In this document: piece after piece, positions 2,517 to 55,431 of the stretch
How positions within the stretch are numbered: position 1 is the first letter of the stretch
Layout of the letters: every line of letters starts with the position of its first letter
Source: Minisyncoccota bacterium
Lineage (GTDB): Bacteria > Patescibacteriota > Minisyncoccia > Phycocordibacterales > SBAW01
Assembly (NCBI GenBank): GCA_035546615.1
Contig: DASZWM010000003.1
Location: forward strand, 32,001 to 96,000
DNA: 64,000 nt
Direction: 5' to 3'
The notes under the pieces: model-generated
Seen by the model: the letters and a program-made list of their open reading frames with translations, nothing else
What the model was told of the DNA's origin: nothing
Databases searched by the model: none
Position numbers and translations under genes: made by a program

Positions 2517-3077
2517 TTAGAACTGCACCTTCACCGGCTCGCGGGCGGCGGCCTCGTCGGCGCTCAGCTCGAAATATTCTTTTTGCTCGAAATGGAAGAC
2601 GCCGGCTATCACGTTGCCGGGGAACGACTGAAGGCCGGTGTTGAGGTCGCGCACGTTGCCGTTGTAGAAGCGGCGGGCCGCCTGGATCTTGTTCTCGGTG
2701 TCGGAAAGCTCTGTCTGGAGGCCGAGGAAATTCTGGTTCGCCTTGAGGTCCGGATACGCTTCCGCGACCGCAAAGAGCGACTTCAAAGCGCCGGACAGCA
2801 TATTCTCCGCCTGGCCCTTTTCCTCGGGCCCTTGCGCGCCCATCGCGGCAGCGCGCGCCTTCGTTACGTTCTCGAACGCCTCGCGCTCGTGCGTCGCGTA
2901 TCCTTTGACGGTCTCGACAAGATTCGGGATAAGGTCGTAGCGGCGCTTGAGCTGCACATCGATATCCGCCCATGCTTCCTTAACGCGCTGCACGAGCGTG
3001 ACGAAATGGTTGTACGAGACGATAACCCAGAACACGAGCACCGCAGCAGCTGCCAGCACTATATAGAGAGGTGTCAT
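2517..3077 (-). CDS. lemA: LemA family protein
   Basis: N-terminal TM helix followed by SYNHFVTLVQRVKEAWADIDVQLKRRYDLIPNLVETVKGYATHE, which is LemA-typical. The track start at 3095 is TTG; an ATG lies at 3077. Confidence 0.85.
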   Translation of the reverse strand: MTPLYIVLAAAAVLVFWVIVSYNHFVTLVQRVKEAWADIDVQLKRRYDLIPNLVETVKGYATHEREAFENVTKARAAAMGAQGPEEKGQAENMLSGALKSLFAVAEAYPDLKANQNFLGLQTELSDTENKIQAARRFYNGNVRDLNTGLQSFPGNVIAGVFHFEQKEYFELSADEAAAREPVKVQF

Positions 3078-3146
3078 ATGTATATGGTATCTCAAAAAGT
3101 ATGGATGTAAAGCATCAAAAAACCCCGCTGATGCGGGGTTTTTTGA

Positions 3147-4850
3147 TTAGTAGTCCATGTCGTCTCCGCCCATTCCTCCCATGCCTCCCTGCATGCCGGG
3201 GCTTCCCTTTTCTTCCTTCGGCTCCTCCGCTATCACCGCTTCGGTCGTCAACAGCATTGCCGCCGCGGATGCCGCGCGCTCCAGGCCCGTGCGCGCCACC
3301 TTGACCGGGTCAATGATGCCGGCCGCTATCATATCGGGCACCACTTCGTTCTTGACCGCGTCGTAGCCGGCGTTCCCGCTTGCCTCGCGCACCTTCTCCA
3401 CGACCACGCCCGGGTCCACGCCCGCGTTCATGGCTATCTGGCGGAGCGGCTGCTCAAGCGCCTTGATGATTATTTCGTAGCCCACGCGCTCTTCGTGGCT
3501 CATACTCGTGAGCGAAGACTCCACGACCGGCGCGATGGAGCCGCGGCGCGGCTTTATCTTGGCGAACCCTTCCACTACCTTTTGTGCCGCCTTCACGAGC
3601 GACGTGCCGCCGCCCGGAACGATACCCTCCTCAATGGCTGCCTTGGTCGCATTGACCGCGTCCTCGATCTTCAGCTTCAAATACTTCATTTCGGTCTCGG
3701 TCGCCGCGCCCACGCGGATGACAGCAACGCCGCCGGACAACTTTGCCAGGCGCTCGTTGAACTTCTCCTTGTCGAACTTGGAGTCGGTCGATTCTACCTG
3801 CGCGCGTATTTGCGCAATGCGCGCATCGATGTCTTTCTTGGCGCCCTTGCCGCCGACTATCACCGTCGAGTCCTTTGTTGCAATAACCTTGCCGGCCTTG
3901 CCAAGCATGCCAAGCGTCGCATTCTCGAACTTGACGCCGGTCTTCTCTGAAATCAGCTCGCCGCCGGTCATGATGGCGATGTCTTCGAGCATTTCCTGCT
4001 TGCGGTCGCCGTAGCCCGGCGCCTTTATCGCCAGCACGTTGAACGAGCCGCGCAGCTTGTTGAGGATAAATGTGGAGAGCGCTTCGCCGTCCACGTCGTC
4101 GGCCACGATGACCAAGTCCTTCTTGCCGGACTCCGCTACCTTCTGGAGTATCGGGAGCACTTCCTGCACGCTCGATATCTTTTTGTCGGTAATCAGTATC
4201 GGCGCGTCCTTATATACGGCTTCCATGCGGCTGGCGTCGGTCACCATGTAGGCGGACACGTAGCCGCGGTCGAACTCGAGGCCCTCTACGACCTCCTTTT
4301 CGATGCCGAGGCTCTGCGACTCTTCCACCGTCACTACGCCGTCCTTCCCCACTTCTTTAATAGTGTCGGCAATTATTGCGCCGATTTCCGCGGACTCCGC
4401 GGAAATGGTCGCGACCTGGCGTATCTCGTCGTCGTTTTGGATCTTCTTGGCAAGGCCGCGCAACGCGGCAACGGCATCGGCGGCAGCCTTCTCGATGCCG
4501 GCGCGCACGCCCATGGCATTCAGGCCCGCTTCCGTGTGCTTCATGCCTTCCTCGACTATCGCCTGAAGGAGCACGACGGAGGTCGTAGTGCCGTCGCCCG
4601 CGATGTCGTTGGTGCGGCTTGCCACTTCCTTCACTATCTCGGCGCCCATATTCTCGAACTTGTTGCTGAAAGATATCTCCTTGGCGATGGAAACGCCGTC
4701 GTTGGTGATGGTGGGGCTTCCGTAGCCCTTGTCCAGGGCGACGTTGCGGCCGCGGGGGCCGAGCGTTATCTTCACCGCGTTCGCGGCCTTGTCGATGCCT
4801 GCCTTCAGCGTCCGGCGCGCGCGCTCGTTAAAAAGGATTTGCTTTGCCAT
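3147..4850 (-). CDS. groL: Chaperonin GroEL (60 kDa)
   Basis: Full-length match to GroEL ([12 protein letters not shown], ...), C-terminal GGM repeats, and groES immediately upstream. Confidence 0.98.
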
Positions 4851-10398: not shown

Positions 10399-10458
10399 GC
10401 CTGCTATGGTAACAAAAAATCCCCCGAAGGGGATCTTTTGAGTGAGCCGTCGGAAGGC

Positions 10459-10851: not shown

Positions 10852-11571
10852 CTAGATAAGCCTTGCCACGACCACCAAACGCTTGTCAAAAGAGTGCGCC
10901 ACGGAGTCCCAATCGCCGTCGCAGGTGATAAGGATTATCTGGGACGGGCCTTCGGTCGAAAATACCGCATCCGCAGGCGCGGCCTCGGCCGGATATTCCT
11001 CGATGCTTGTTACCTCATATGACAGGCTCCGGCCGTCTTTATCGAGAACCTGAATAGTCGCCCCCTCTTTGATCTGCGACAGGTGCGAAAAGACCCCCGC
11101 AGTCGTGAGCGCGTTATTGACATGCCCCGCGAAGACCGCGTTGCCCGGGCCGCCGGGCTTGGAGCCGGGCGCGTACCACGCCACGCTGCCGAAGGTACTC
11201 GGCGTGCCCATGGCGCCGTCGGCCTTCTTCCCCACATTCTCAACGGGCGCGTCTACGCCGAGCGAAGCTATCTTGAGCCGCGCGGGAGAAATCGGCTGCG
11301 TCGTGGTTGCGGCAGGTGCAGCGGGCGTTGCAAGCCTGTTGGCAACAGCAGGGTCCCCAAGCGCCGCGGCGGGCGCGAATGCAAGGAACGATGCCTTGGA
11401 GTCGAGCCCCGGAAGCTGCAGGCGCCTGAGCACGTCGACGCCGCCCACCAGTATAGCAAAGGCGCCGAGCGCGAGCGCGAGCTTGCGCAGCCAATGCGAA
11501 GGATGTCGGCGCTCTGTTGTCACGAGTACTCCCGACCTAGCGGACGATAGCAGCAAGGGTCTTTCTGACAT
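10852..11571 (-). CDS. Sortase family transpeptidase (class E/F-like)
   Basis: N-terminal TM anchor, a catalytic-like region with VFAGH and LITC (TLxTC) Cys motif. It overlaps the upstream FPNTG-protein gene by 35 nt. Confidence 0.65.
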   Translation of the reverse strand: MSERPLLLSSARSGVLVTTERRHPSHWLRKLALALGAFAILVGGVDVLRRLQLPGLDSKASFLAFAPAAALGDPAVANRLATPAAPAATTTQPISPARLKIASLGVDAPVENVGKKADGAMGTPSTFGSVAWYAPGSKPGGPGNAVFAGHVNNALTTAGVFSHLSQIKEGATIQVLDKDGRSLSYEVTSIEEYPAEAAPADAVFSTEGPSQIILITCDGDWDSVAHSFDKRLVVVARLI

Positions 11572-12190
11572 ACGGGATGGTAAGCGAAGCCAGAATCGCG
11601 AGCGCCGCGAGGACGAGCGACAGCAGAGCGACGTTCATGGGCTCGAAGCCGGTGTTCGGGAATGCGGGAACGTACTTGGAGACGACGGCCGGCTGTACCT
11701 GGCAGCCGCAGTTTTGGGCGCTGTAGGCATACGTCACCGGCTGCGCGTATTGGGAGCATCCGCAAGGCGTCTGGTAGGTGTAATTCTGGTACGGGTAGTA
11801 ATCGTTGTAGCCGCCGTAATAATCGTCGGTCTCGCGCATGGTAATGCGGCACGTTTCGGTGTCATTGCGGTCAAGATCGCCCCGGCAGCCGCTTGAGTAT
11901 GAAGGCGTGTAGCCGCTCCGGTTGCGGACGGAAACCGAGTACCAGCCGTCGACATACACCGTCGTGCCGTTGTCCGAACCCTTAAAGGATTCTTTTGAAA
12001 CATCGTCGCCGTCCACGCGCACGGTAAAGTCGGACGGGTCGTCGTTGCTGTAGCGGTCGTCCACGTCGACATAGACCTTGAGGCGGCCGTCGCTGCTGCT
12101 GGCGGCTGAGGAAACGGCGGGCGCGAGGGCGCCGGCCAAGAGAGCGACCGAGACAAGGGACAGCACGAGGGAGCGTTTAAAGTGGGTCAT
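11537..12190 (-). CDS. Secreted protein with C-terminal FPNTG sorting signal (putative sortase substrate)
   Basis: Signal peptide, and a Cys/Tyr/Asn-rich middle region. The C-terminus reads FPNTG, then a hydrophobic helix, then an RK tail. Confidence 0.6.
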   Translation of the reverse strand: MTHFKRSLVLSLVSVALLAGALAPAVSSAASSSDGRLKVYVDVDDRYSNDDPSDFTVRVDGDDVSKESFKGSDNGTTVYVDGWYSVSVRNRSGYTPSYSSGCRGDLDRNDTETCRITMRETDDYYGGYNDYYPYQNYTYQTPCGCSQYAQPVTYAYSAQNCGCQVQPAVVSKYVPAFPNTGFEPMNVALLSLVLAALAILASLTIPYVRKTLAAIVR

Positions 12191-12279: not shown

Positions 12280-12486
12280 CTAGAACCCGGCCGGAAGGGC
12301 GAGGCTGCTTAGGAACGCCGGGATGACCAAAGGGAGCAAGACAAGCGGAACGGCGATAGCGCCCACCGTTATCCAAAAGCCCCAGAGCATGTACTTGCGC
12401 TGCTTTTCCGAGGAGGCGTACAGGGCGTCCACCTTCCCCTCAAGCTCGCGCAGCTTCATCTCCATCCGGTCGAGCTGTTCGTTCAT
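12280..12486 (-). CDS. Small membrane protein with N-terminal coiled-coil
   Basis: 68 aa. ELEGKVDALY helix followed by one TM segment. No family assignment. Confidence 0.35.
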   Translation of the reverse strand: MNEQLDRMEMKLRELEGKVDALYASSEKQRKYMLWGFWITVGAIAVPLVLLPLVIPAFLSSLALPAGF

Positions 12487-21694: not shown

Positions 21695-22105
21695 TTATCT
21701 GATGCGGATCCGGCGGAGGGCTTTGCGGGCTTTTTTGTAGTCCGGAATGGTCTCTTCGACCAGGGCCCAGAAGGCGGGGCTGTGGTTCATTTCCTTCAGG
21801 TGGCACAGCTCGTGGGTTACGACATATTCGGCCAGGCGCGGCGGCAAGAAAAGGAGGCGGTAGTTGAAGTTGAGGTTGCCGTGCTCCGAGCAGCTCCCCC
21901 ACCGCGAACGGCTGTTCTTTATGAATACCCGGCGCACGGCGTAGTCGTAGTGCGCGTTGAGGCGCGCGATGAGCGCATGGACAAGCGCGCGAGCCTCTTC
22001 CTTATACAGCTGGAACTTCCGCGAACTAGCCGCCGAAGCCGGGCGTCGTCTCCGTACCCGCCGCCGATATACGATTTTGTATCCAAACACCGAGGTATTG
22101 TACAA
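21695..22105 (-). CDS. YgjP-like metal-dependent hydrolase (DUF45/M48-like, HExxH)
   Basis: WGSCSEHGNLNFNYRLLFLPPRLAEYVVTHELCHLKEMNHSPAFW. TTG start, Arg-rich N-terminus. This is the last GC-rich gene before the island. Confidence 0.6.
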   Translation of the reverse strand: MYNTSVFGYKIVYRRRVRRRRPASAASSRKFQLYKEEARALVHALIARLNAHYDYAVRRVFIKNSRSRWGSCSEHGNLNFNYRLLFLPPRLAEYVVTHELCHLKEMNHSPAFWALVEETIPDYKKARKALRRIRIR

Positions 22106-22141
22106 CCTTACTTAATGGCAGGCTCAGATATAGATTTATAA

Positions 22142-22540
22142 CTACAAAATTGAGATAACTTTCTTAACGACGGAGTCTGAAGCACTCTTGAGTCGATGTT
22201 CCCATATTCTTAATACCTTCCAATTCATACTTTTTAATTGTTTATTAACCAATCTATCTCTTTTCTTATTTCTTTCTATTTTGTTAGTCCAATATGCGCG
22301 ATTTGTCTTTGGAACTCTACAGTGAGTCTTACATCCGTGCCAAAAACAAGAGTCAATGAAAATTGCTGTCTTAGAAACAGAAAAAACAATATCAGGTCTG
22401 CCTGGCAATTTTGCCACATGAGTTGTAAACTTTAGTTTACTTTTTTTCAGTTGCTTCTGAAAAGATTTTTCTATACCTGAATTTCTACTCTTAATGAGAC
22501 GCATTATTTCGCTGCGTCTTCCAGAAGATACATTGTCCAT
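22142..22540 (-). CDS. vsr: Very short patch repair endonuclease Vsr
   Basis: FIDSCFWHGC...P.TN..YW..KI..N..RD motifs. Confidence 0.9.
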   Translation of the reverse strand: MDNVSSGRRSEIMRLIKSRNSGIEKSFQKQLKKSKLKFTTHVAKLPGRPDIVFSVSKTAIFIDSCFWHGCKTHCRVPKTNRAYWTNKIERNKKRDRLVNKQLKSMNWKVLRIWEHRLKSASDSVVKKVISIL

Positions 22541-22544
22541 GCCT

Positions 22545-23612
22545 TTATTCTTCTATATCCCAACCTGTTGGAAGTGTGATTTTGGTATAGGCTCTTTCTT
22601 TGATAAAAGGGACAATCTCTGCGCTCGAAGGAAACTCTGCGTCAAATTCTCTCGTTAAATCACTTAACAAAGTGCCAGCAAGTCGTTCTCTATATTCTTT
22701 ACTGAGGCAAAGAGTATACCAGTCATGCAAATCTTTAAGAGTAATTATTCCTTGCACACGCTCAATAATCCCGAGCTGTTGTAGCAGGGCCTCAATAGGT
22801 TTCTTTTCTGCGTCTCGACAAACAATTACAATCCTGTCCGCTTCGATTCCCTCGACAATTCCTTCGGTTACTTCAGGAGTAAGTGTAAGGTGTTTTACCT
22901 GGATAGCTGTTCCAAAATTTGCCCACATATCTAATCCCCTATCCGCCGCATTCGTTACGCCAACTCTAAAAAGGGCTGCGGGCATAGCTACTTGAGTCTT
23001 TCTGGCATCTATGCCTAAAACCATTTTTATAAAACCTTCAAAATCAGTAAGTATTTCTTTGTCTTCATTTTTAATCGAAAGGGTGATTTCCGCTTTTAAT
23101 GCTCGTACAATAGCGGAAAAAAGAGCATGCACTGCTATTTCATATATTTTATCTGTGCTTCGTCTCAAGCCAGGACTTGATGTAAAAAGTTCCACTAATT
23201 CCATTATGGAAAAAGTGTCCACTGTTGACTGTTCGATATAGTCTCTTACCCGATGAACAGATAGTAACTTATTTTGTAAAGCTTTATAAATATAAGCCTC
23301 TACTCCGCCCTTACTTGTTGTATTTATTTTTCCTAACACTGCCAATAGTTGGGGCGGCATAGCATTAGGCTCAAAGATATTATCTTGGTACTTTGCGCTA
23401 GAAGTACTGCTCCTCCCAACAAGTAAGGTGGAGACTTCATCTCTCCAACGTTTAGAGACAGAGCGATAACTTTCTAGATCAGTTAGTTCTAGCTTTTTCT
23501 TAGTTCTATGATAGAAAAGTATCTCCGCTATCTGTATAGGTTTATAGAAGTGCACTCTGGCCTTCTTTATAACTGAATCCAGAGCCGCTTTTGCTTCTTC
23601 AGCCATTGACAT
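22545..23612 (-). CDS. Putative type II restriction endonuclease (family unassigned)
   Basis: The 355-aa ORF lies between the C5-MTase and vsr and overlaps the MTase stop by 14 nt. No family was identified by eye. Confidence 0.5.
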   Translation of the reverse strand: MSMAEEAKAALDSVIKKARVHFYKPIQIAEILFYHRTKKKLELTDLESYRSVSKRWRDEVSTLLVGRSSTSSAKYQDNIFEPNAMPPQLLAVLGKINTTSKGGVEAYIYKALQNKLLSVHRVRDYIEQSTVDTFSIMELVELFTSSPGLRRSTDKIYEIAVHALFSAIVRALKAEITLSIKNEDKEILTDFEGFIKMVLGIDARKTQVAMPAALFRVGVTNAADRGLDMWANFGTAIQVKHLTLTPEVTEGIVEGIEADRIVIVCRDAEKKPIEALLQQLGIIERVQGIITLKDLHDWYTLCLSKEYRERLAGTLLSDLTREFDAEFPSSAEIVPFIKERAYTKITLPTGWDIEE

Positions 23613-24621
23613 ACGCCCGTTCTACCATATTTATGTCTTTTCCGCTAAACAATTCAGTTTGTTCAATAAAAGGAACCGGGTCTTTCGACATTGCTTCAAC
23701 CATTGCGTGGGCCACTGCTTCCATCTGAGGAACCACTACAGCATTACCAGCTTGCTTCCGGATTTGCTGGTCAGCAACAACAAATTTATATGAATCGGGA
23801 AAACCCTGTAATCTAAACATCTCTCTAGGAGTCAGTCTTCTTTCTCCATTTACAATAAGATAGTTATATGAACCATTAGCCCTAAGAGCGCATGAATAAG
23901 CATTCACGCCTAGGTTTCCAGACTTATTTTCGTGCAAGATTAACGGACGAGAATGAAGTTCTTTGTGTTGTTCTTTTAATTGTCTCTGGACTTTCTGCAA
24001 CATATAATCGCTAAGAAAGTGTTTTTTATCGACCTCATTATCAGGCTCAAGGATGTCTTCAAGAGTTTTCTTTTTTCCCCTCCCTTTGGTAGGAAATTCA
24101 AAAGGGTAGTTTTCTCTAAAACCTACAATCATTATTCGCTCTCTCTTTTGCGGAACGCCAAAATCTAGACCATTTAAAACTTTAAAGTGCACAAAATAAC
24201 CTAGTTTTCTTAAACTATTTAGAATTACTGAAAACGTCCTTCCTTGATCATGATTGGTAAGTTGTTTTACATTTTCCAAAAATAGAGCTTTTGGTTTCTT
24301 TGCCTTTAGAATTCTCTCAACATCAAAAAACAACGTGCCTCTTGTTTCAGAGAAACCTTTCATATTCCCCATGATGCTAAAAGCTTGGCATGGAAAACCG
24401 CCTGTCAAAATATCATGGTCAGGCACATCTTTTGCAACTATTTTCGTTATATCTCCATCTGGCTGGTCGCCGAAATGATTCTTATACATCTTCTGCGCAG
24501 CTTCATCCCATTCTGATGTAAAAACACATTTACCTCCTGCCGCTTCAAAACCAAGTCTAATGCCTCCAATTCCTGCAAAGAGATCGATAAAAGTAAATTT
24601 ATTCTTATTCGTTGGAGCCAT
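23599..24621 (-). CDS. dcm: DNA (cytosine-5)-methyltransferase
   Basis: Motif I FIDLFAGIGG, motif IV GGFPCQAFS, motif VI ENV, motif VIII QRRERI-like. Confidence 0.95.
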   Translation of the reverse strand: MAPTNKNKFTFIDLFAGIGGIRLGFEAAGGKCVFTSEWDEAAQKMYKNHFGDQPDGDITKIVAKDVPDHDILTGGFPCQAFSIMGNMKGFSETRGTLFFDVERILKAKKPKALFLENVKQLTNHDQGRTFSVILNSLRKLGYFVHFKVLNGLDFGVPQKRERIMIVGFRENYPFEFPTKGRGKKKTLEDILEPDNEVDKKHFLSDYMLQKVQRQLKEQHKELHSRPLILHENKSGNLGVNAYSCALRANGSYNYLIVNGERRLTPREMFRLQGFPDSYKFVVADQQIRKQAGNAVVVPQMEAVAHAMVEAMSKDPVPFIEQTELFSGKDINMVERAYVNG

Positions 24622-24851
24622 AGAGCAATATATTTTAACACCTATTTTAAGCTTGCTATATTTTTAATAATAGCACTGAAATCTATATTTATACACAATA
24701 TACACAAGTCTTGGGGATAACTTTAGTGAGGGCCGTTTTTGGTCCAGGATAGCCGTATCCGCCAGCCGATAAAAATAGAGTAAGGGGGTAAAGATCAGCA
24801 ATCGTGGGATGAGCGTGTCTAATAGTCACCTAAGGATTTATAGCCATAAGG

Positions 24852-25193
24852 CTATTGTGGCAAACCCTTAATTTTGTTTCTGAAGAAATTAAATCGCATC
24901 TTAGCATAGTCCCAAAGAAAAGAGCAGAACGACTTATTTGGATGTCTTTTTATTTCACGCAAGTTCTCGAAAGCATAATTAAGTATATCTATAAATAATA
25001 ACCCTGGTACAACACCCAATGCGAATATATACCAATCAGAAAAACGTGTTTTTAACAAACTGTAAGTCGCATTTACTGCAATTCCAAGAACTACCGCAAG
25101 CGTCGCACCGAGTATCACAAATGCCCACTGTATTTGTAGACTTCTTTCCTCTTGTAAATCACCCTTGTTCATGGCGAATATATCTAATAACAA
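24852..25193 (-). CDS. Small two-TM membrane protein (candidate effector of the Ubl/E1 module)
   Basis: Two hydrophobic helices (WAFVILGATLAVVLGIAV; WYIFALGVVPGLLFIDIL). TTG at 25193 or ATG at 25172. It lies 8 nt after the upstream stop. Confidence 0.5.
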   Translation of the reverse strand: MLLDIFAMNKGDLQEERSLQIQWAFVILGATLAVVLGIAVNATYSLLKTRFSDWYIFALGVVPGLLFIDILNYAFENLREIKRHPNKSFCSFLWDYAKMRFNFFRNKIKGLPQ

Positions 25194-25201
25194 GTAAAAA
25201 A

Positions 25202-25612
25202 TTATTCGAAGAAGCTACGCAATTGGACTAATATCCAGTTTCCAAATCGTCGCCACCATGACAGGGAGGAATGAATAAAGTATGCATCCTTGATGGTATC
25301 GTCATATTCTCGCCCGTGGCGTATCTGTTCTCGAGTCATCTTCGACGCCCAAATCACTTGATTTTCAATAATCCAATAATGTGACTGACAAGGATGATTC
25401 CAGTTTCCTATTGAAGGACGTAGCGAGACCACCCCCTGCCAATCAACTAGCGTATATTCGGTCTTACGGAGAGGGGTAACGATTTTAGTGCCACAACTGC
25501 AACAGCACAAATGGCTCGCGGTTCCGAAACGTCGTGAGATATATAGAACACCACTCTCAAGCTCTCTTGGTATGAACTCAACATATTCAGGACGCACCAA
25601 CTCTGTCTTCAT
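25202..25612 (-). CDS. Cys-rich Zn-ribbon-like protein (DUF6527-like, recalled)
   Basis: HLCCCSCGTK...NHPCQSH cluster. The ATG at 25612 overlaps the E1-like gene stop (ATGA-type coupling). Confidence 0.5.
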   Translation of the reverse strand: MKTELVRPEYVEFIPRELESGVLYISRRFGTASHLCCCSCGTKIVTPLRKTEYTLVDWQGVVSLRPSIGNWNHPCQSHYWIIENQVIWASKMTREQIRHGREYDDTIKDAYFIHSSLSWWRRFGNWILVQLRSFFE

Positions 25613-26808
25613 ATACAATCCTCTTTTGTAAGGGCGTGGGTCGCAATCGTGTACAGCGAATGACGTTCTCGCACATCATCAGCATAAAAACCACACAATT
25701 GCTTCCATTTTCCCACAGCCATGGCAGCATTTAGCATATTTAGGTCCGCAACCTGCATATTACGGTACACCGCCTCGGCCGGCACTTTTGCAAATGAAAC
25801 AACTTCCGCAATATGTCCATGATGGTCGGGTGTTCCAACTGTAAAGCGACACTGTCCGCGCAGAGACGCCTGATTATCGAGTGCCAAGTCTATTCCAACG
25901 TCTATGAACGGCACACCAAGAGCAATAAGGCCATTAAGTATGTTCTTCCGGCTCTCTCCGTCGTCGATAGCAACAAACACGAAGTCGAACCCGGACAGCT
26001 CGTGGAGATGCGCGTCCTGGACATAGTAGGGATGACGCTTCAAGCCCTTGTGTATACGTTCGTATATACCACTGAACCAATCCACTTTTAGTGGATTGTT
26101 AAGCTCCTGCTTCATCGGAGCACCCGGTGCTCTAAACGCGTTGTGGAGTTCGAACGTATCCCCATCGAAAATGTGGATTTCTTTCACCGGCGTCTTAGCA
26201 ACAAGGTCGAGAATATACGAACCAGTACCACCTAGTCCTATAATCGCCACCCGACTTGCAAGGAGTTTCGCCGTGGCCGCTCCAATACCAGCACGGGTTG
26301 TTGCCATATCAGGATAATGGAATGCGAGTTCCTGAGCTTCGACTACCGCCGGTACTGGTTTTTCACTTCGTGGATCGCAAGTCCGATCAATTGCTTGAGC
26401 TTCGTGCCAAATCAGACGAACATATGTCCAGATTTTTTCGTAGTAGTCGGCATACTTGCGCTTATCAGCGTGCACACGCGAGAAGGCGACAGTCGTCTTA
26501 ATCCCATCGCCCTTATCCTCCTCAGCGTTGTTCGAAATCATCTCCGTCATTAGTTGACCATCCGCGTTGTGCGGGGGTTCTCCAATCCACCAACACTGAT
26601 GGTTGGAACATGGATTCACTGTCTTTCCGGCCGCATCAATTTCAAGTGGGCAATAGAGAATTCCAGGCACTATTTTGCCTTCAGAGGTAACAGCAGGAAT
26701 TCCCTCAATTAAAAGATGAGAGGCAGTCCCTTGAATGACCCGGAGACGAAAACCTTCCGCCTCCAACTTTGCCAAATCGGCATTATGACTTATCCGTATT
26801 TCTGACAT
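25609..26808 (-). CDS. E1-like ThiF/MoeB-fold enzyme with ~165-aa N-terminal domain of unknown fold
   Basis: VAIIGLGGTGSYILDLVAKTPVKEIHIFDGDTFELHNAFR is a ThiF nucleotide-binding motif. The N-terminal domain has conserved-looking C/H residues (YCPLE, NPCSNHQCWW, PPHN). Confidence 0.8.
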   Translation of the reverse strand: MSEIRISHNADLAKLEAEGFRLRVIQGTASHLLIEGIPAVTSEGKIVPGILYCPLEIDAAGKTVNPCSNHQCWWIGEPPHNADGQLMTEMISNNAEEDKGDGIKTTVAFSRVHADKRKYADYYEKIWTYVRLIWHEAQAIDRTCDPRSEKPVPAVVEAQELAFHYPDMATTRAGIGAATAKLLASRVAIIGLGGTGSYILDLVAKTPVKEIHIFDGDTFELHNAFRAPGAPMKQELNNPLKVDWFSGIYERIHKGLKRHPYYVQDAHLHELSGFDFVFVAIDDGESRKNILNGLIALGVPFIDVGIDLALDNQASLRGQCRFTVGTPDHHGHIAEVVSFAKVPAEAVYRNMQVADLNMLNAAMAVGKWKQLCGFYADDVRERHSLYTIATHALTKEDCI

Positions 26809-27040
26809 CGAAGTTCATATGATCGACCACATCTACACTTTGGCCCCGGCGAAGCGATCCTTCGTGTCCACCTGGCTTAGTCCATGAAACGCTGTAGCGA
26901 ACATCGCCTCCGAACGGACCAGTTGGGAATGCGAGCTTGATGACTTGCTCGTAGCTAATATCGTGTTCACCCCACTTCTCTTGAATACCGTTCACAACAA
27001 TGCTTATGGTGTGTCCATGCCCTTTATTATCGTCTGCCAT
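26783..27040 (-). CDS. Multiubiquitin-like beta-grasp protein (85 aa, no C-terminal GG)
   Basis: ISIVVNG...ISYEQVIKLAFP...RYSVSW...GQSVDVVDHMNFDVR matches, from memory, the multiubiquitin domain pattern of prokaryotic E1/E2 operons. It overlaps the E1-like gene start by 26 nt. Confidence 0.5.
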   Translation of the reverse strand: MADDNKGHGHTISIVVNGIQEKWGEHDISYEQVIKLAFPTGPFGGDVRYSVSWTKPGGHEGSLRRGQSVDVVDHMNFDVRNTDKS

Positions 27041-27224
27041 ATAATTTTAATTGTCGGCTTTTTAATTTAAGTGCGGCACCGGTCGACCGCACTTGTATCG
27101 TACACCCATTTCTGATACCCTTGCAAGGTAACTAGATGTATCAAATGTTACCTAAAGTACCATATTTGTTATATCTGATACCTGTTGTTACAACCTATAA
27201 CAAGTTACGCACAGATTTCAAATC

Positions 27225-27584
27225 ATGAGAAAATCATCCGCTACAATAAACAATGAAAGCAGATCCACAGAGCTTGAAATCCGGAAAGAGATTGGCAGAC
27301 GTATCGCTGAAATGCGTAGCAAACTGGGGCTTACAGCTCGCCTTGTTGCCAAAGAACTTCATGTCTCACGCGAAGCCATTACTCACATTGAAACAGGGCG
27401 AAACAATATATCTGCCGTATCGCTGTGGGAATTGGCGACTCTCTTCCATTGTGATATTGCTGATTTTTTCCCTGATATTCCTAATGGATATTCTTTAACT
27501 AGGGTCGATATTAATAAAGTAGCACAAATGAGTGGAAAGACAGGGGCGGCATGGGCTGAAAAGATTTTTGGGAAAAAGAAATAA
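27225..27584 (+). CDS. XRE-family HTH transcriptional regulator (CapH/ImmR-like)
   Basis: HTH_3 signature IGRRIAEMRSKLGLTARLVAKELHVSREAITHIETGRNNIS. Confidence 0.85.
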   Translation: MRKSSATINNESRSTELEIRKEIGRRIAEMRSKLGLTARLVAKELHVSREAITHIETGRNNISAVSLWELATLFHCDIADFFPDIPNGYSLTRVDINKVAQMSGKTGAAWAEKIFGKKK

Positions 27585-27588
27585 ATAT

Positions 27589-28083
27589 ATGATGTCAGAA
27601 AGAATTGAGAAAAAAGCGGAGGAAGTCTTAAGCGCACTGAATGTTAAGTCAATACCTATCTCTGTTGAAGAAATCGCGAATCAATTAAAGATCAAGATAG
27701 GAAGAGCACCTAGTAGTGAATTTTCTGGAATGTTGATTCGAAAAGATGGTCGAGCACTTATGGGTATAAATAACAGTGAAGGCACTGCGAGACAACGATT
27801 CACTATTGCGCATGAACTTGGGCATTATTTCTTACATCCACAAAATGATACTTTTGTAGACTATAGGCAGAACGAAAAAGAACCAAGAAATCATAGAGAA
27901 CGAGAGGCTGATATGTTTGCAGCAGCACTCTTAATGCCTAGGAAAGAAGTAACAAAAGACTTTCAGAAAATTGTTAGGAAAGGATTTTCAGAAATTGAAC
28001 TTCACAAACTGGCAGGAAAATATGAAGTGAGCGACAAAGCAATGAGATTTAGGTTAGTAAACTTAAATATGCTATTAGGTTAA
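27589..28083 (+). CDS. ImmA/IrrE family Zn-metallopeptidase (CapP/ImmA-like)
   Basis: HELGHYFLH HExxH motif in the COG2856 fold context. It lies immediately downstream of the XRE gene. Confidence 0.85.
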   Translation: MMSERIEKKAEEVLSALNVKSIPISVEEIANQLKIKIGRAPSSEFSGMLIRKDGRALMGINNSEGTARQRFTIAHELGHYFLHPQNDTFVDYRQNEKEPRNHREREADMFAAALLMPRKEVTKDFQKIVRKGFSEIELHKLAGKYEVSDKAMRFRLVNLNMLLG

Positions 28084-32585: not shown

Positions 32586-33455
32586 TTACCTGCCGAGCAC
32601 GAGGCTGCGGCGGATGAAGTCGAACTCGGTGACGAGCTTCGCCTTGTCAAACGCGGTTACCGTGCCCTCCGGATAGTTCCCTAGTTGCGTTGAGTGTATG
32701 TAGTAGCGCACCGCGGTGCACGGATTGGTCCCGGGTATGGAGAACACCGCTTCGTCGTAGAGGTTGCCCGCGCCCGCGCCGCTTGAAGTAGCGGCCGAGT
32801 AATCGACGCCCGAATCGCTGAAGGTTATCGCCTTGCCGCCGTCCAGGAAGGACGTTGCGAGACACGCGCTATTTCCCGGAAGCCACTCAACGCTGATGTA
32901 GGAATCTTTAGACAGGTTGGTGCCTTGCGCGCTCGAGGCGGGAATGGTGAACTTCACGCCCGAAATATTCTTGCCCGGGCCGAGCGCCTGGTACGTATAG
33001 GGCGCGGCCGTGTAGCCCGCCGGGAAGCGGAGGCTGAAGCCCGCGGTCGAGGTCGCGTATACCTGGTTGAGAAGCCCTGTGGCGTCCGGAGCGACCATGA
33101 CGCAGCCGCTGTAGGTCTCCTGCTGGGAGGCGCCCTCCTCTACGAAGGCGGTATTGCCTTTGCCCCAGAAGACGAAGCTCTCGTCCTGATTGGCATAGCG
33201 GATGCCCGAACCCGAAACGGCCTGCGGGAGCGCCATGGTGCGGCCGTCGCTGAGGCTGAGCGCCACGCTCCCCTCAAAAAATGCCGCGCTGATGGAGCGG
33301 CCCGCGTCGCACGCGAATGCGGCGGTCGCGACCGGCTGGGGGCCCGCGGCCGTGTCGGCGGGCGCAGCGGACTTCGTGCCCGCGAAATACCACCACCCTG
33401 CGCCGAGGACGGCGATGAGCGCGACGACGACTATTACTGCTGTTGATGTTTTCAT
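32586..33455 (-). CDS. Exported hypothetical protein (GAGWWYF anchor)
   Basis: N-terminus MKTSTAVIVVVALIAVLGAGWWYF, paralogous to the 20289 gene. Probably beta-rich. Confidence 0.55.
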   Translation of the reverse strand: MKTSTAVIVVVALIAVLGAGWWYFAGTKSAAPADTAAGPQPVATAAFACDAGRSISAAFFEGSVALSLSDGRTMALPQAVSGSGIRYANQDESFVFWGKGNTAFVEEGASQQETYSGCVMVAPDATGLLNQVYATSTAGFSLRFPAGYTAAPYTYQALGPGKNISGVKFTIPASSAQGTNLSKDSYISVEWLPGNSACLATSFLDGGKAITFSDSGVDYSAATSSGAGAGNLYDEAVFSIPGTNPCTAVRYYIHSTQLGNYPEGTVTAFDKAKLVTEFDFIRRSLVLGR

Positions 33456-34424: not shown

Positions 34425-35573
34425 TTATTGGATGAGATTCCAGGTATTCTGGTCTTCCCCGCCGTCGAATTTGAAGAATGCGACGCCCCTGATGCCGAGC
34501 TTTTTGGCGAGCGCTATCTTTTGTGCGATGGCGGTCGAGTCGCTCCACGAAAGGATATTGATGGTCTGAGCGCCTGCGGCGGCGGGACCCGCCGCCGCCG
34601 AGGACGTGCGCACGCCGGCAACGGTCGGCGTAGACGTGGCGAGGTAGGTCAGCTGTAGCTCGCCGGCGCTGTTGCGGATGGGCTTGAGGCCGAGGCTCAT
34701 CGCGAGGTCGGTGCCGTACTTGGGATTGAACGCCCAGAGCCTGCTATAGCTGTAGCCGGAGGTCGGAAGCGGCGTCACGGTGTATTCGTAGCCGTAGGTC
34801 GGGATGCCGAGCACAAGCTTTTTCTTGGAAATGGTCTGCGCGGCCAGAGTCATCACCTTCTCCACCCACGCAACGTCGGCCACGGGAATGTACGGACCTG
34901 CGGCGGTACCATTGAGCTTAACGTCGATGGCGCCCTGGTCGTACGCCATTATCTGCACGCGGTCGCAGTACTTGTTTATCTGCACGAAATCGTTGGCGTA
35001 AACGCCGGCGTCCTTGGGCGGCGTGCCGTCGTAGCGCGAGTCCAGCGGGGTGCGCGACTCGATAGTGCAGTAGACCCACTTCTGCCCCATCCGCTGGTAG
35101 AGGCCCTTGAGGAAGAGCGAGAAATAATCGCGCGTCTCGGCGTATTTGCTTTCGAAATCGATATCGATGCCGTCGAAGCCCTCGCGCACTACGAGCGCCG
35201 CCACGTCGTCCTCGAGCTTCTGGCGCGTCGTTGCGTTTGAAAGGATGCGGTGCATTGAGGCGCCGTCGCTCCACATGATGGTCGGAATATAGCGCACGCC
35301 GTTCTTCTTCGCGGCGGCGCGGAGGCTCTTCCACGGTTCGTCGGCAAAGCCGGTCGGGTCGGACAGGACGCCGGTGTTGGTAACGATGTAGCCGAACGGA
35401 TGCACGGCCGTGAGGCTTGCGATGCGCGGCAATACGTCGGCGGTGCCGGTTGCGGCGCGCCAGTACGGGATCCAGCCGGACACCTCAAGCGCGGACTTGA
35501 GAGGCGCGGCGTGCGCCGCGCCGGGGAGTGCCATGAGAAGGCCGAGTATGGAGAATAGGAAAAAACGCTTCAT
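34425..35573 (-). CDS. Glycoside hydrolase family 18-like (chitinase-like) secreted protein
   Basis: Signal peptide. GFDGIDIDFE matches the GH18 DxxDxDxE catalytic motif. Confidence 0.7.
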   Translation of the reverse strand: MKRFFLFSILGLLMALPGAAHAAPLKSALEVSGWIPYWRAATGTADVLPRIASLTAVHPFGYIVTNTGVLSDPTGFADEPWKSLRAAAKKNGVRYIPTIMWSDGASMHRILSNATTRQKLEDDVAALVVREGFDGIDIDFESKYAETRDYFSLFLKGLYQRMGQKWVYCTIESRTPLDSRYDGTPPKDAGVYANDFVQINKYCDRVQIMAYDQGAIDVKLNGTAAGPYIPVADVAWVEKVMTLAAQTISKKKLVLGIPTYGYEYTVTPLPTSGYSYSRLWAFNPKYGTDLAMSLGLKPIRNSAGELQLTYLATSTPTVAGVRTSSAAAGPAAAGAQTINILSWSDSTAIAQKIALAKKLGIRGVAFFKFDGGEDQNTWNLIQ

Positions 35574-54496: not shown

Positions 54497-55429
54497 TTAT
54501 ATCTGGAGGTACCGGCGCACCGCAAGGAAGCTTGCCGCGGCGCCAAGCACGATGCCCGAACCCGCGATGACGCCGAAGAACAGCGGGAAATGCGTGATGA
54601 AGTAGTTGAAGACGTTCACGCCGCCGAAGAAATTAACGGTGGCGCTCCCGAGCCACCACGTGAGCGGATACATAAGGAGGAGCGTGATGACCGCGGCTAC
54701 CAGGCCGTACAGCACGCCTTCCACCATGAACGGCGCGCGGATGTAGCTCTTGGTGGCGCCAACGAGCCGCATCACCTGTATCTCATCGCGGCTGGAGTAG
54801 ATGGCGAGCCTGAGCGTGTTAAAGGAAATGGCGATGGTCATGAGTATGAATATGACTATAACGACGAGCCCTATCCATTTGGCGGAGTCGGTTATCTGCG
54901 CGAGCCGGTCCACCGCCGCGCGGTGCTCCGCGTCGTAGTAGTTTATCTTCTCGATAATCGGCGTGGCGCCGCTCCCCAGCGCGTCCTGGTCGTTGAGGAA
55001 GCTCGCAAGACCCTCGTACTGCGTTATCTCATGCGCCTTGATGTTGAGGACCGCTCCCAGCGGATTGTCGCCGAGCTCTTCGAGGGCCTGAAGGGTCAGC
55101 TGGTCGTTCTGATGGCGCTCGCGGAAGGCGGCAAGCGCCGCTTCGCGGGTCGTGTAGGTCACCGTTTCCACTTCGGGAAGCGCCTCAAGCGAGCTCTTTA
55201 TCTCGAGTATGCGGTCCTCCGGCGCGTCGGTCGTGAAGTACACGTTCATATCGGCCTTGTCGCGGAATTCCTCGAGCGTGGAGCTCAGTATCACGCCGGT
55301 GAACATGGCCAGCCCTATGACGCACAGCGTAAAGACCATCATAAGGACGGACGCGAAGGACACGAAGCCGTTCCTCCAGAAATCGAGGAACCCCGCCCTA
55401 AACACGCGTTTTATGCTGAGCCAATTCAT
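54497..55429 (-). CDS. ftsX: Cell division permease-like protein FtsX
   Basis: FtsX topology: one TM, a periplasmic domain, then three TM. Confidence 0.9.
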   Translation of the reverse strand: MNWLSIKRVFRAGFLDFWRNGFVSFASVLMMVFTLCVIGLAMFTGVILSSTLEEFRDKADMNVYFTTDAPEDRILEIKSSLEALPEVETVTYTTREAALAAFRERHQNDQLTLQALEELGDNPLGAVLNIKAHEITQYEGLASFLNDQDALGSGATPIIEKINYYDAEHRAAVDRLAQITDSAKWIGLVVIVIFILMTIAISFNTLRLAIYSSRDEIQVMRLVGATKSYIRAPFMVEGVLYGLVAAVITLLLMYPLTWWLGSATVNFFGGVNVFNYFITHFPLFFGVIAGSGIVLGAAASFLAVRRYLQI

Positions 55430-55431
55430 AG

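What the first reader, a model, noticed from the sequence alone, without database searches (positions are those of the whole stretch)
10852..12190. Overlapping sortase and cognate FPNTG-motif substrate gene pair
The 217-aa secreted protein ends with FPNTG, a hydrophobic helix and an RK tail. This is the tripartite cell-wall sorting signal with a non-canonical motif (FPNTG rather than LPxTG or LAxTG).

Its gene overlaps by 35 nt with a downstream sortase-family gene (TLxTC-type LITC motif). Such dedicated sortase-substrate pairs often build pili or anchor a single adhesin. The substrate has a Cys/Tyr/Asn-rich repetitive middle (YYGGYNDYYPYQNYTYQTPCGCSQY).
Basis: partly seen in the sequence, partly recalled or inferred. 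Interest (0 to 1): 0.5.

Follow-up and report, generated by a model that had tools for sequence, protein, structure and literature searches.

The report
Conserved sortase–substrate gene pair in Paceibacterota
Two overlapping genes in an uncultured ultra-small (CPR/Paceibacterota) bacterium encode a sortase enzyme and the small surface protein it most likely attaches to the cell wall; the pair is real and conserved in many related genomes, but it is an ordinary example of a well-known anchoring system.

Summary
A 217-aa secreted protein is encoded at 11537..12190(-). It ends in FPNTG, a hydrophobic helix and a PYVRK tail. Its gene overlaps by 35 nt a 239-aa sortase gene at 10852..11571(-) with invariant His150/Cys217/Arg231.

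The window comes from a Candidatus Paceibacterota MAG. GenBank already names the enzyme "class F sortase" and the substrate "hypothetical protein".

The pair is conserved. In 80 species-representative genomes holding a related sortase, 67 have this substrate family directly upstream. In 64 of those the sortase ATG sits inside the substrate's Tyr-Val/Ala (or His-Val/Ala) codons, giving a 35-, 32- or 29-nt overlap. Both reading frames are constrained there.

FPNTG is a minority spelling: the family motif is canonical LPNTG (88 of 114 members; FPNTG 13).

The substrate has one disulfide-containing CnaB/SpaA_2-like beta-sandwich, then a disordered Tyr/Thr/Pro/Gln-rich linker. It has no conserved lysine, so cell-wall anchoring of a single surface protein is far more likely than pilus building.

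The sortase is class-F-like: it is the best HMM match but scores below the curated cutoff.

Verdict: a new member of a known kind, with modest interest. A conserved 68-aa membrane protein lies just upstream and may belong to the module.

The parts
11537..12190 (-). Substrate gene: a 217-aa secreted surface protein with a C-terminal sorting signal. GenBank calls it hypothetical protein VHD55_01285.
   Evidence: ORF. It is 100% identical to P0001. The family has 116 members at E<=1e-3, none with a functional name and only one (P0229, PF19403) with a precomputed Pfam domain. The query itself has no Pfam or NCBIfam hit.
12101..12190 (-). N-terminal Sec-type signal peptide, about residues 1-30 (MTHFKRSLVLSLVSVALLAGALAPAVSSAA). 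It has no lipobox Cys.
   Evidence: Read from the sequence. The hydrophobic N-terminus is conserved in homologs. AF2 models a helix at residues 3-30. The cleavage site is inferred, not tested.
11831..12088 (-). Folded beta-sandwich domain, residues 35-120. It is CnaB/SpaA_2 (prealbumin-like) and carries invariant Cys102 and Cys114.
   Evidence: pLDDT is 85-96 with eight strands. Foldseek PDB top hits are Spy0125/Cpa, PitA, T-antigen pilins and GBS52. The family profile hits tandem repeats, at profile positions about 35-122, in giant proteins. Pfam calls those repeats SpaA_2 PF19403. The Cys pair is invariant in 52 sequences.
11681..11824 (-). Low-complexity Tyr/Gln/Pro/Asn-rich linker, residues 123-170, with two CGC motifs. 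It is probably the wall-spanning spacer.
   Evidence: pLDDT is below 50 at residues 127-158. Family-wide composition is Y 18%, T 14%, P 13%, Q 10%. Length ranges from 19 to 125 residues. The CGC motifs occur only in the closest relatives.
11648..11662 (-). FPNTG sorting motif, residues 177-181. Cleavage is predicted between Thr180 and Gly181.
   Evidence: Sequence. P178, T180 and G181 are invariant and N179 is at least 90% conserved. Family counts are LPNTG 88, FPNTG 13 and WPNTG 5 of 114. The cleavage position is inferred from sortase biochemistry.
11582..11632 (-). Hydrophobic membrane-retention helix of the sorting signal, residues 187-203.
   Evidence: AF2 helix at residues 187-203. The distance from TG to PYVRK is 24 residues in 101 of 114 members.
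11561..11575 (-). PYVRK, the charged tail of the sorting signal (residues 206-210). The sortase ATG lies inside its Tyr-Val codons (taTGtc).
   Evidence: PYVRK occurs in 97 of 114 members, and 7 residues follow it in 110 of 114. The ATG is embedded in the Tyr/His-Val/Ala codons in 64 of 67 loci. The Tyr codon there is TAT in 56 of 59 loci.
11537..11571 (-). 35-nt dual-coding overlap. It encodes the last 11 substrate codons plus the stop, and sortase codons 1-12.
   Evidence: The overlap is 35 nt in 52 loci, 32 nt in 9 and 29 nt in 3, out of 67 related loci. Both frames are constrained.
10852..11571 (-). Sortase gene, 239 aa, class-F-like. GenBank calls it 'class F sortase', 223 aa, from a downstream GTG.
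   Evidence: Pfam PF04203 at 3.9e-21. NCBIfam class_F_sortase scores 125.8 bits over the whole profile against a cutoff of 166; every other class scores 34 bits or less. Foldseek matches solved sortases at 1e-9.
11419..11496 (-). Sortase N-terminal membrane anchor, residues 26-51. It is preceded by a short basic cytoplasmic segment.
   Evidence: AF2 helix at residues 26-51. The segment is conserved and hydrophobic in alignment A3.
10855..11286 (-). Sortase catalytic beta-barrel, residues 96-239. Catalytic residues: His150 (11122..11124), Cys217 in ILITC (10921..10923) and Arg231 (10879..10881).
   Evidence: H150, C217 and R231 are invariant in 32 sequences. pLDDT is 84-96 in most 10-residue blocks (two dip to 69 and 78). 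Arg231 aligns with the catalytic Arg of a class A sortase.
12280..12486 (-). Conserved 68-aa coiled-coil plus transmembrane protein directly upstream on the same strand. It is a possible third member of the module; its function is unknown.
   Evidence: tblastn finds it upstream of the substrate gene in 39 loci of the local set (which includes four duplicate loci), at 46-81% identity. It is present even where the other upstream neighbour differs. It matches no Pfam or NCBIfam family.

Best explanation
This is a dedicated, vertically inherited sortase-substrate cassette of Paceibacterota (CPR).

Proposed mechanism:
1. The 217-aa protein is exported by Sec, and its signal peptide is removed.
2. 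Its single CnaB/SpaA_2-like beta-sandwich folds outside the cell, probably with a Cys102-Cys114 disulfide.
3. The protein is held in the membrane by the C-terminal helix and the PYVRK tail.
4. The membrane-anchored class-F-like sortase encoded by the overlapping downstream gene recognises (F/L)PNTG and cleaves between Thr180 and Gly181 through Cys217.
5. The sortase transfers the protein to an amine of a peptidoglycan precursor.

The result is one small surface protein displayed on a Tyr/Pro/Gln-rich wall-spanning stalk. The conserved 35-nt overlap places the sortase start codon inside the substrate's PYV codons. It probably couples sortase translation to substrate translation, and at a lower level.

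Shown here: gene structure, the sorting-signal anatomy, the sortase fold and catalytic triad, conserved adjacency, dual-frame constraint, the domain fold, and the absence of a conserved Lys.

Inferred: export, the disulfide, the cleavage site, the peptidoglycan acceptor, translational coupling, and the biological role (adhesin or wall-structural protein).
For: - Anatomy.
- Catalytic triad H150/C217/R231 is invariant. The sortase fold matches solved sortases at E 1e-9.
- Sorting signal is conserved with fixed geometry: the motif, 24 residues to PYVRK, then 7 residues to the stop.
- Gene order is the same in distant relatives (substrate identity down to about 35%, sortase about 50%), always with the overlap.
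- 67 of 80 GTDB species representatives with a related sortase carry the substrate upstream. 64 of those 67 have the embedded ATG.
- Both frames are constrained in the overlap, and the Tyr codon is biased to TAT.
- More distant Parcubacteria sortases also sit next to xPNTG substrates, without an overlap. Two MAGs carry one cassette of each type, which argues for one sortase per substrate.
- The substrate domain is CnaB/SpaA_2-like, the usual building block of sortase-anchored proteins.
- There is only one sortase and one sorting-signal protein in the 64 kb.
- Sortases are known to be common in CPR (PMC6744442).
Against: - Nothing here is biochemical. Cleavage, the acceptor and even expression are untested.
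- The sortase scores below the curated class F cutoff (125.8 against 166 bits). No close solved structure exists by sequence (best 30.7 bits).
- Pfam and NCBIfam report no LPXTG-anchor model among their matches to the substrate at E<=1.
- Only 64 kb of the genome was visible. Other substrates or sortases elsewhere cannot be excluded, so 'dedicated' rests on adjacency alone.
- No mur genes are in the window.
- No Shine-Dalgarno-like conservation was seen upstream of the embedded ATG, so how the sortase is translated is unknown.
- The structure of the CPR envelope is unresolved (PMC5220378).
Confidence: 0.75

Rival explanations
1. This is a sortase-assembled pilus. The sortase polymerises copies of the CnaB-like protein into a covalent fibre, as class C sortases do with pilins.
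For: The best structural matches of the substrate domain are pilus adhesins and pilins: Spy0125/Cpa, PitA, T-antigens and GBS52. The best Foldseek matches of the sortase model are class C enzymes such as A. oris SrtC-1, C. diphtheriae SrtA and SrtC2. The sortase has a conserved juxtamembrane segment, F65 and P67 within FxAFAPAAA, where class C enzymes carry their lid.
Against: No Lys is conserved anywhere in the mature protein. Only K5 (signal peptide), K172 (35%) and K210 (tail) reach 30% or more, so there is no pilin-motif nucleophile. The class C HMM scores 20.5 bits against a cutoff of 160, while class F scores 125.8. The lid motif DP(W/F/Y) is absent: 'DP' is present in only about half of the homologs and is followed by a small residue. 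The Foldseek E-values for classes C, A, D and E all lie within 1e-9 to 1e-7, so the fold search does not discriminate between classes. The cassette has a single substrate gene and a single sortase, with no tip or base pilin.
Confidence: 0.1
2. The protein is processed but not joined to peptidoglycan. The sortase would release it, or transfer it to another acceptor such as a glycan, a lipid, an S-layer component, or the N-terminal amine of another copy. Alternatively the protein simply stays membrane-anchored by its C-terminal helix.
For: The CPR envelope is uncharacterised (PMC5220378). The tail after the RK is unusually long and hydrophobic: 7 conserved residues. The extended motif LPNTGF-x-P is family-specific. 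No mur genes are in the window.
Against: The long tail is explained by the dual-coding overlap. All characterised sortases with a His-Cys-Arg triad and LPXTG-type signals act as transpeptidases onto cell-wall precursors or pilins (PMC8225981). Wall-related genes are present in the window and in a syntenic relative. Peptidoglycan synthesis is reported in Parcubacteria.
Confidence: 0.12
3. The adjacency is accidental. The two genes are functionally unrelated, and the FPNTG tail is a chance match.
For: None beyond the fact that short motifs do occur by chance.
Against: It is the only credible sorting-signal ORF in the six frames of the 64 kb, and it lies next to the only sortase. The pair with its overlap is conserved in 64 of 67 related loci. 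P178, T180, G181, P184, Y207, R209 and K210 are invariant.
Confidence: 0.01

Closest known systems
Class F sortases (NCBIfam NF033748). The only characterised member is the housekeeping SrtF of Cutibacterium (Propionibacterium) acnes (Di Girolamo et al. 2019, cited in PMC8225981).
   Same: Class F is by far the best HMM match: 125.8 bits over profile positions 3-154 of 155, while other classes score 34 bits or less. The enzyme has an N-terminal membrane anchor, a His-Cys-Arg triad and a TLxTC-type motif. The family-level substrate motif is LPXTG-type (LPNTG), matching the LPXTG preference reported for P. acnes SrtF. GenBank already labels it a class F sortase.
   Different: It scores below the curated cutoff of 166 bits. 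It comes from Paceibacterota, not Actinobacteria. It retains the catalytic Arg, whereas actinobacterial class F enzymes are said to have a conserved Asn there (PMC8703055). It is genomically paired with one substrate through a conserved dual-coding overlap, rather than serving scattered substrates. It has a clade-specific conserved juxtamembrane segment.
Class C (pilin-specific) sortase plus pilin operons of Gram-positive bacteria, for example C. diphtheriae SpaA/SrtA and A. oris FimA/SrtC.
   Same: The sortase is encoded next to its substrate. The substrate is built from a CnaB/SpaA-type beta-sandwich. The top structural hits for both proteins come from these systems.
   Different: There is no pilin-motif lysine and no conserved Lys for an isopeptide bond. 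There is no lid motif. The substrate has a single domain and the cassette a single substrate gene. The class C HMM scores only 20.5 bits.
Canonical LPXTG cell-wall sorting signals of Firmicutes class A sortase substrates, for example LPNTG in S. thermophilus PrtS (PMC8623714).
   Same: It has the tripartite signal of motif, hydrophobic helix and basic tail. The pentapeptide LPNTG is identical in most family members.
   Different: This particular gene has F in the first position. The signal is extended and rigid: (L/F)PNTGF-x-P, then 24 residues, then PYVRK, then exactly 7 more residues. The final residues are shared with the sortase reading frame. Pfam and NCBIfam anchor models do not detect it.
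SpaA_2 prealbumin-like fold domain (Pfam PF19403), a relative of Cna-B domains.
   Same: The family profile hits tandem SpaA_2 repeats in giant proteins at E values down to 1e-162, over residues 35-122. The predicted fold matches CnaB-type pilin and adhesin domains.
   Different: The window protein itself does not reach Pfam significance. It has a single copy of the domain. It has a conserved Cys pair rather than a Lys-Asn/Asp isopeptide.

Membership tests
Sortase superfamily (Pfam PF04203, MEROPS C60) | Significant match to the sortase domain model | tested here: met
   PF04203 at 3.9e-21, 75.5 bits against a cutoff of 26.6, covering residues 99-238 and the whole profile.
Sortase superfamily (Pfam PF04203, MEROPS C60) | Catalytic His-Cys-Arg triad with a TLxTC-type Cys motif | tested here: met
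   H150 (GHVNN), C217 (ILITC) and R231 (KRLVV) are invariant in 32 homologs. Arg231 aligns with the catalytic Arg of a class A sortase.
Sortase superfamily (Pfam PF04203, MEROPS C60) | Eight-stranded sortase beta-barrel fold with an N-terminal membrane anchor | tested here: met
   The AF2 model has mean pLDDT 78.6, with most core blocks at 84-96 and a helix at residues 26-51. Foldseek gives 108 PDB matches at E<=1e-3; the 50 listed are all sortases, the best at 1e-9.
Sortase superfamily (Pfam PF04203, MEROPS C60) | Transpeptidase activity on a sorting signal | not testable with these tools
   This needs enzyme assays.
Class F sortase (NCBIfam NF033748) | Score at or above the curated cutoff of the class F model | tested here: not met
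   It scores 125.8 bits against a cutoff of 166, although it is the best class by more than 90 bits and covers the full profile. It is best described as class-F-like.
Class F sortase (NCBIfam NF033748) | LPXTG-type substrate preference, as for P. acnes SrtF | tested here: inconclusive
   The adjacent substrates carry LPNTG in 88 of 114 members and FPNTG in 13, which is consistent. Preference itself is a biochemical property and was not tested.
Class C pilin-polymerising sortase | Match to the class C model, and a lid with DP(W/F/Y) | tested here: not met
   NF033745 scores 20.5 bits against a cutoff of 160. No DP-aromatic motif is present; 'DP' plus a small residue occurs in only about half of the homologs.
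Class C pilin-polymerising sortase | Substrate with a pilin-motif lysine nucleophile | tested here: not met
   No alignment column of the mature protein reaches 30% Lys except K172, at 35%. No Lys is among the invariant or nearly invariant columns.
LPXTG-type cell-wall sorting signal | N-terminal signal peptide plus a C-terminal pentapeptide, a hydrophobic stretch and a basic tail | tested here: met
   The sequence shows it directly. AF2 predicts helices at residues 3-30 and 187-203. P178, T180, G181, R209 and K210 are invariant.
LPXTG-type cell-wall sorting signal | Leu in the first position of the motif | tested here: not met
   This gene has Phe. Family-wide, Leu occurs in 94 of 114 members, Phe in 13, Trp in 5, and Tyr and Val in one each.
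LPXTG-type cell-wall sorting signal | Match to curated anchor HMMs (the Pfam and NCBIfam LPXTG-anchor models; their names are recalled from memory) | tested here: not met
   No anchor model appears among Pfam or NCBIfam hits at E<=1. As far as I recall, these short models are built mainly on Firmicutes sequences.
SpaA_2 / Cna-B prealbumin-like domain (PF19403) | Significant match to the Pfam model | tested here: inconclusive
   There is no direct hit for the window protein. One family member, P0229, hits PF19403 at 3.3e-18. The family profile hits multi-repeat SpaA_2 proteins at E values down to 1e-162.
SpaA_2 / Cna-B prealbumin-like domain (PF19403) | CnaB-like beta-sandwich fold | tested here: met
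   pLDDT is 85-96 for residues 31-120. Foldseek probability is 1.00 to the CnaB-containing pilus proteins 2xid, 7w6b, 6n0a and 3phs, though TM-scores are low because only about 85 of 217 residues are folded.
SpaA_2 / Cna-B prealbumin-like domain (PF19403) | Intramolecular Lys-Asn/Asp isopeptide bond (present in many but not all members) | tested here: not met
   There is no conserved Lys. The invariant pair Cys102/Cys114 stands in its place.

The most novel reading that the evidence does not exclude
The cassette may be a three-gene envelope module specific to Paceibacteria: the 68-aa coiled-coil membrane protein, the CnaB-like LPNTG protein, and the class-F-like sortase with its dual-coding start. 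It would make the main, perhaps the only, covalently wall-anchored surface protein of these ultra-small episymbiont-like cells. That protein would serve as their host-attachment or wall-organising stalk. A more radical version is that the sortase joins copies head-to-tail through the mature N-terminal amine, into a lysine-independent fibre.
Probability: 0.2. Interest if true: 0.5.

Novelty: new member of a known kind. Interest (0 to 1): 0.3.

Why it matters
CPR/Patescibacteria make up a large share of bacterial diversity, yet their envelope and the way they attach to hosts are poorly known. A near-universal sortase plus single-substrate cassette in one large CPR class gives three things:

- a concrete, testable prediction that these cells covalently decorate peptidoglycan;
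- a conserved surface protein that could serve as a handle for labelling or enriching uncultured Paceibacterota;
- a clean natural case of a 35-nt dual-coding overlap, in which a sorting signal's charged tail and its enzyme's N-terminus share DNA.

It also corrects a likely mis-called start codon and gives a function to a family annotated only as 'hypothetical protein'. None of this changes what is understood about sortases.

Tried and rejected
- **Direct family assignment of the substrate.** Pfam and NCBIfam gave only sub-threshold noise (Gp34_trimer, Euplotes pheromone). Assignment came only through the family profile and the predicted fold.
- **Sequence search of the sortase against the PDB.** The matches were weak: best 30.7 bits, to a class A chimera. 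No solved structure turned up as a close relative, so class could not be settled structurally. Foldseek ranks classes C, A, D and E within two orders of magnitude.
- **Pilus hypothesis.** Considered because of the fold hits, and rejected for lack of any conserved Lys or lid motif.
- **Metal-binding idea.** The CGC motifs sit next to ZIP transporter and Fur genes. Rejected: the CGC motifs occur only in some of the closest relatives. ZIP is replaced by a MarR/efflux neighbourhood in L006 and L007, while the cassette stays.
- **Pam pili of CPR (bioRxiv 10.64898/2026.03.03.709456).** These are a different system. They use donor-strand exchange, occur in Saccharimonadia and Microgenomatia, and involve no sortase.
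- **Promoter and terminator scan.** Promoter-like sites were at chance level. Terminator-like sites were nominally above shuffles (8 against 2.9), but most lie inside coding sequence. The one clean hairpin with a T-run follows the RRM gene at 10433..10421(-). Operon limits remain unknown.
- **Peptidoglycan synthesis genes in the window.** None were found among about 40 ORFs scanned. Only indirect wall markers turned up.
- **First automated start-calling.** Taking the first Met after a stop gave spurious long overlaps in several loci. It was replaced by a direct test for the embedded ATG.
Full report
**What is in the sequence.** The upstream gene, 11537..12190 on the minus strand, encodes 217 aa. 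Its parts, in order, are:
- a hydrophobic Sec-type N-terminus (MTHFKRSLVLSLVSVALLAGALAPAVSSAA);
- a region that folds;
- a Tyr/Gln/Pro/Asn-rich stretch with two CGC motifs;
- the C-terminus ...YVPAFPNTGFEPMNVALLSLVLAALAILASLTIPYVRKTLAAIVR.

The downstream gene, 10852..11571(-), encodes 239 aa from its ATG and shares 35 nt with the first gene. It matches the Pfam sortase domain at 3.9e-21. A six-frame scan of the whole 64 kb for sorting-signal-like C-termini found no other credible candidate. HMMs built from the two protein families hit only these two ORFs.

**Source.** Both proteins are 100% identical to entries from a Candidatus Paceibacterota MAG on a 156,901-bp contig. The substrate is 'hypothetical protein VHD55_01285' and the enzyme is 'class F sortase'. 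The neighbours are ordinary core genes: GroEL, a family-5 solute-binding protein, RNase J, an HhH-GPD glycosylase, an RRM protein, a ZIP transporter, Fur, YibE/F, MsrB and LexA.

**The sortase.**
- NCBIfam's class F model is the best match by a wide margin: 125.8 bits, E 1e-36, profile positions 3-154 of 155. It is below the curated cutoff of 166.
- Other classes score far lower: class GN 34, generic 29, E 22, C 20.5 and D 14 bits.
- In an alignment of 32 homologs, His150 (GHVNN), Cys217 (LITC) and Arg231 (KRLVV) are invariant.
- AlphaFold2 gives a confident beta-barrel behind a transmembrane helix at residues 26-51.
- Foldseek finds solved sortases of classes C, A, D and E at 1e-9 to 1e-7. 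This confirms the fold but cannot choose a class.
- By sequence the nearest solved structure scores only 30.7 bits.
- Actinobacterial class F enzymes are reported to carry Asn at the catalytic Arg position (PMC8703055). This enzyme keeps Arg.

I therefore call it class-F-like rather than a certified member.

**The substrate.** It has no Pfam or NCBIfam family. A first search found eight homologs with invariant PNTGF-x-P and PYVRK. A profile search raised this to 116 proteins, all from Parcubacteria/Paceibacterota where a source name is given, apart from one entry labelled Acetobacteraceae. None has a functional name.

The C-terminus is strikingly regular across 114 members:

| Feature | Count |
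|---|---|
| LPNTG | 88 |
| FPNTG | 13 |
| WPNTG | 5 |
| LPRTG | 3 |
| single cases of other motifs | 5 |
| Phe directly after the motif | 97 |
| 24 residues from TG to PYVRK | 101 |
| exactly 7 residues after PYVRK | 110 |

FPNTG is thus a minority variant of a canonical LPXTG-type signal. LPNTG itself is a normal class A sortase motif in streptococci (PMC8623714).

- AlphaFold2 (52-sequence alignment, mean pLDDT 76.6) predicts a well-defined beta-sandwich at residues 35-120 (pLDDT 85-96), a disordered linker (below 50 at 127-158) and a C-terminal helix at 187-203.
- The closest solved folds are CnaB-type domains of sortase-assembled pilus proteins: Spy0125/Cpa, PitA, T-antigens and GBS52.
- An exhaustive HMMER search with the family profile found 1,845 proteins. 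The top hits are giant proteins containing up to 16 copies of the residue 35-122 domain. Pfam calls those repeats SpaA_2, a prealbumin-like fold.
- Cys102 and Cys114 are invariant.
- No lysine is conserved in the mature protein.

**Conservation of the pair.**
- In five distinct related loci retrieved by exact protein look-up (seven locus records, two of them duplicates), the order is: small 67-78-aa protein (absent in L003), substrate, sortase, RRM protein, HhH-GPD, RNase J, solute-binding protein. The substrate and sortase always overlap by 35 nt, even where the sortase is about 50% and the substrate about 35% identical to the window's.
- A scan of one genome per GTDB species returned 80 loci. 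Nearly all are labelled Paceibacterota, Adlerbacteria, Kaiserbacteria, Nomurabacteria or generic Patescibacteria.
- 67 of the 80 have this substrate family directly upstream. In 64 of those the sortase ATG is embedded in the Tyr/His-Val/Ala codons of the PYVRK tail, giving overlaps of 35 nt (52 loci), 32 nt (9) or 29 nt (3).
- A few relatives have LPNAG or WPHAG in place of LPNTG.
- More distant Parcubacteria sortases also have an upstream xPNTG substrate, with a different tail (xPNTG-[A/T]GG...) and no overlap. Two MAGs carry one cassette of each kind (L032 with L077, and L044 with L083). This argues that each sortase serves its own neighbour.

**Is the overlap real?** The GenBank record starts the sortase at a GTG 48 nt downstream (223 aa), which removes the overlap. 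Three observations favour the ATG.
- The N-terminus MSEKPLLLSSAKSGV is conserved in 32 of 32 homologs.
- In 45 loci, third-codon positions of the substrate frame carry 0.0-0.3 bits upstream of the ATG but about 1.0-1.6 bits inside the overlap, where they are second positions of the sortase frame. Codon periodicity in the sortase frame continues past the substrate's stop.
- The Tyr codon supplying the AT of the ATG is TAT in 56 of 59 loci, against 42% TAT at other Tyr codons of the same ORFs. The binomial p is 7e-18, but the sequences are related, so this number overstates the evidence.

No Shine-Dalgarno-like conservation precedes the ATG. Translational coupling to the substrate ORF is a reasonable inference but is not shown.

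**Mechanism.** The best-supported reading is the classical sorting pathway:
1. Sec export and folding of the CnaB-like domain, probably with a disulfide.
2. Retention in the membrane by the helix and the PYVRK tail.
3. Cleavage of (F/L)PNT|G by Cys217.
4. Transfer to a peptidoglycan precursor.

This would display a single small domain on a Tyr/Pro/Gln-rich spacer. Anchoring is favoured over pilus assembly for four reasons: there is no conserved lysine, no lid motif, only one substrate gene, and a class C HMM score of only 20.5 bits.

I found no mur genes in the 64 kb. The window does hold FtsE/FtsX and an MliC lysozyme-inhibitor-domain protein. A syntenic relative has a YkuD L,D-transpeptidase. 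The literature reports complete peptidoglycan pathways in Parcubacteria (PMC5220378) and sortases in more than half of CPR genomes (PMC6744442).

**Comparison with what is known, and novelty.** This is a sortase next to its LPXTG-type substrate, which is a textbook arrangement, and the enzyme is already annotated. Four things are new at a modest level:
- recognition of the 'hypothetical' neighbour as the cognate substrate family;
- the family's rigid extended signal;
- the conserved dual-coding overlap that places the sortase start inside the signal's charged tail;
- the breadth of conservation in Paceibacterota.

The recently described Pam pili of CPR are unrelated: they use donor-strand exchange, involve no sortase, and occur in other CPR classes. 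I rate the finding a new member of a known kind, with interest 0.3.

**Open points.** The 68-aa coiled-coil plus transmembrane protein immediately upstream (12280..12486, minus strand) is better conserved than the substrate itself: up to 81% identity, found in 39 loci of the local set, which includes four duplicate loci. It matches no known family. It may be a third component of the module. The acceptor molecule, the number of substrates per genome and the biological role are untested.

Noticed in passing
window 12280..12486 (-): A 68-aa protein with an N-terminal coiled coil and a C-terminal transmembrane helix lies directly upstream of the substrate gene. It is conserved at 46-81% identity in 39 related loci of the local set (four of them duplicates), which is better than the substrate itself. 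It matches no Pfam or NCBIfam family. It may be a third member of the cassette.
   Followed up: partly
window 22000..28000: This is a low-GC island (0.40-0.44, against about 0.60 elsewhere). It carries a HaeII-type restriction endonuclease (22545..23612), a C5 cytosine methylase (23599..24621) and a DUF6791+ThiF protein (25609..26808). It is probably a horizontally acquired defence island.
   Followed up: partly
window 11523 vs 11571 (-): The GenBank record starts the sortase at a GTG (223 aa). Dual-frame conservation and the conserved MSEKPLLL N-terminus indicate that the upstream ATG (239 aa) is the real start. The same mis-call may affect other annotated homologs.
   Followed up: yes
L079 about 2700..3430 (CAZOZG010000004.1): A substrate-like ORF (...SAPNTGAGG plus a hydrophobic stretch) reads in frame straight into the sortase catalytic domain. 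There is no stop, no basic tail and no separate sortase anchor. This could be a gene fusion, a deletion or an assembly artefact.
   Followed up: no
L019, L029, L030, L031, L078 (upstream of position about 3000, or about 900 in L031): Some family members have LPNAG or WPHAG in place of LPNTG, that is, Ala in place of the Thr that normally forms the acyl-enzyme. The tail and the overlap are otherwise identical.
   Followed up: partly
L073, L077, L081, L082, L083, L086: A second type of Parcubacteria cassette exists: more distant sortases preceded, without overlap, by short Ser/Thr-rich or larger proteins ending in xPNTG-[A/T]GG, a TM helix and a basic tail. Two MAGs carry both cassette types.
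   Followed up: partly
window 32586..33455 (-), 34425..35573 (-), 54497..56112 (-): These ORFs are an MliC lysozyme-inhibitor-domain protein, a GH18 glycosyl hydrolase and FtsE/FtsX. They are indirect signs of a peptidoglycan wall and of interaction with muramidases or chitin-like glycans.
   Followed up: no
window 10421..10433 (-): A clean intrinsic-terminator-like hairpin (TCCCCTTCGGGGG followed by a T-run) follows the RRM gene. None was found between the sortase and the RRM gene, so the RRM protein may be co-transcribed with the cassette.
   Followed up: no
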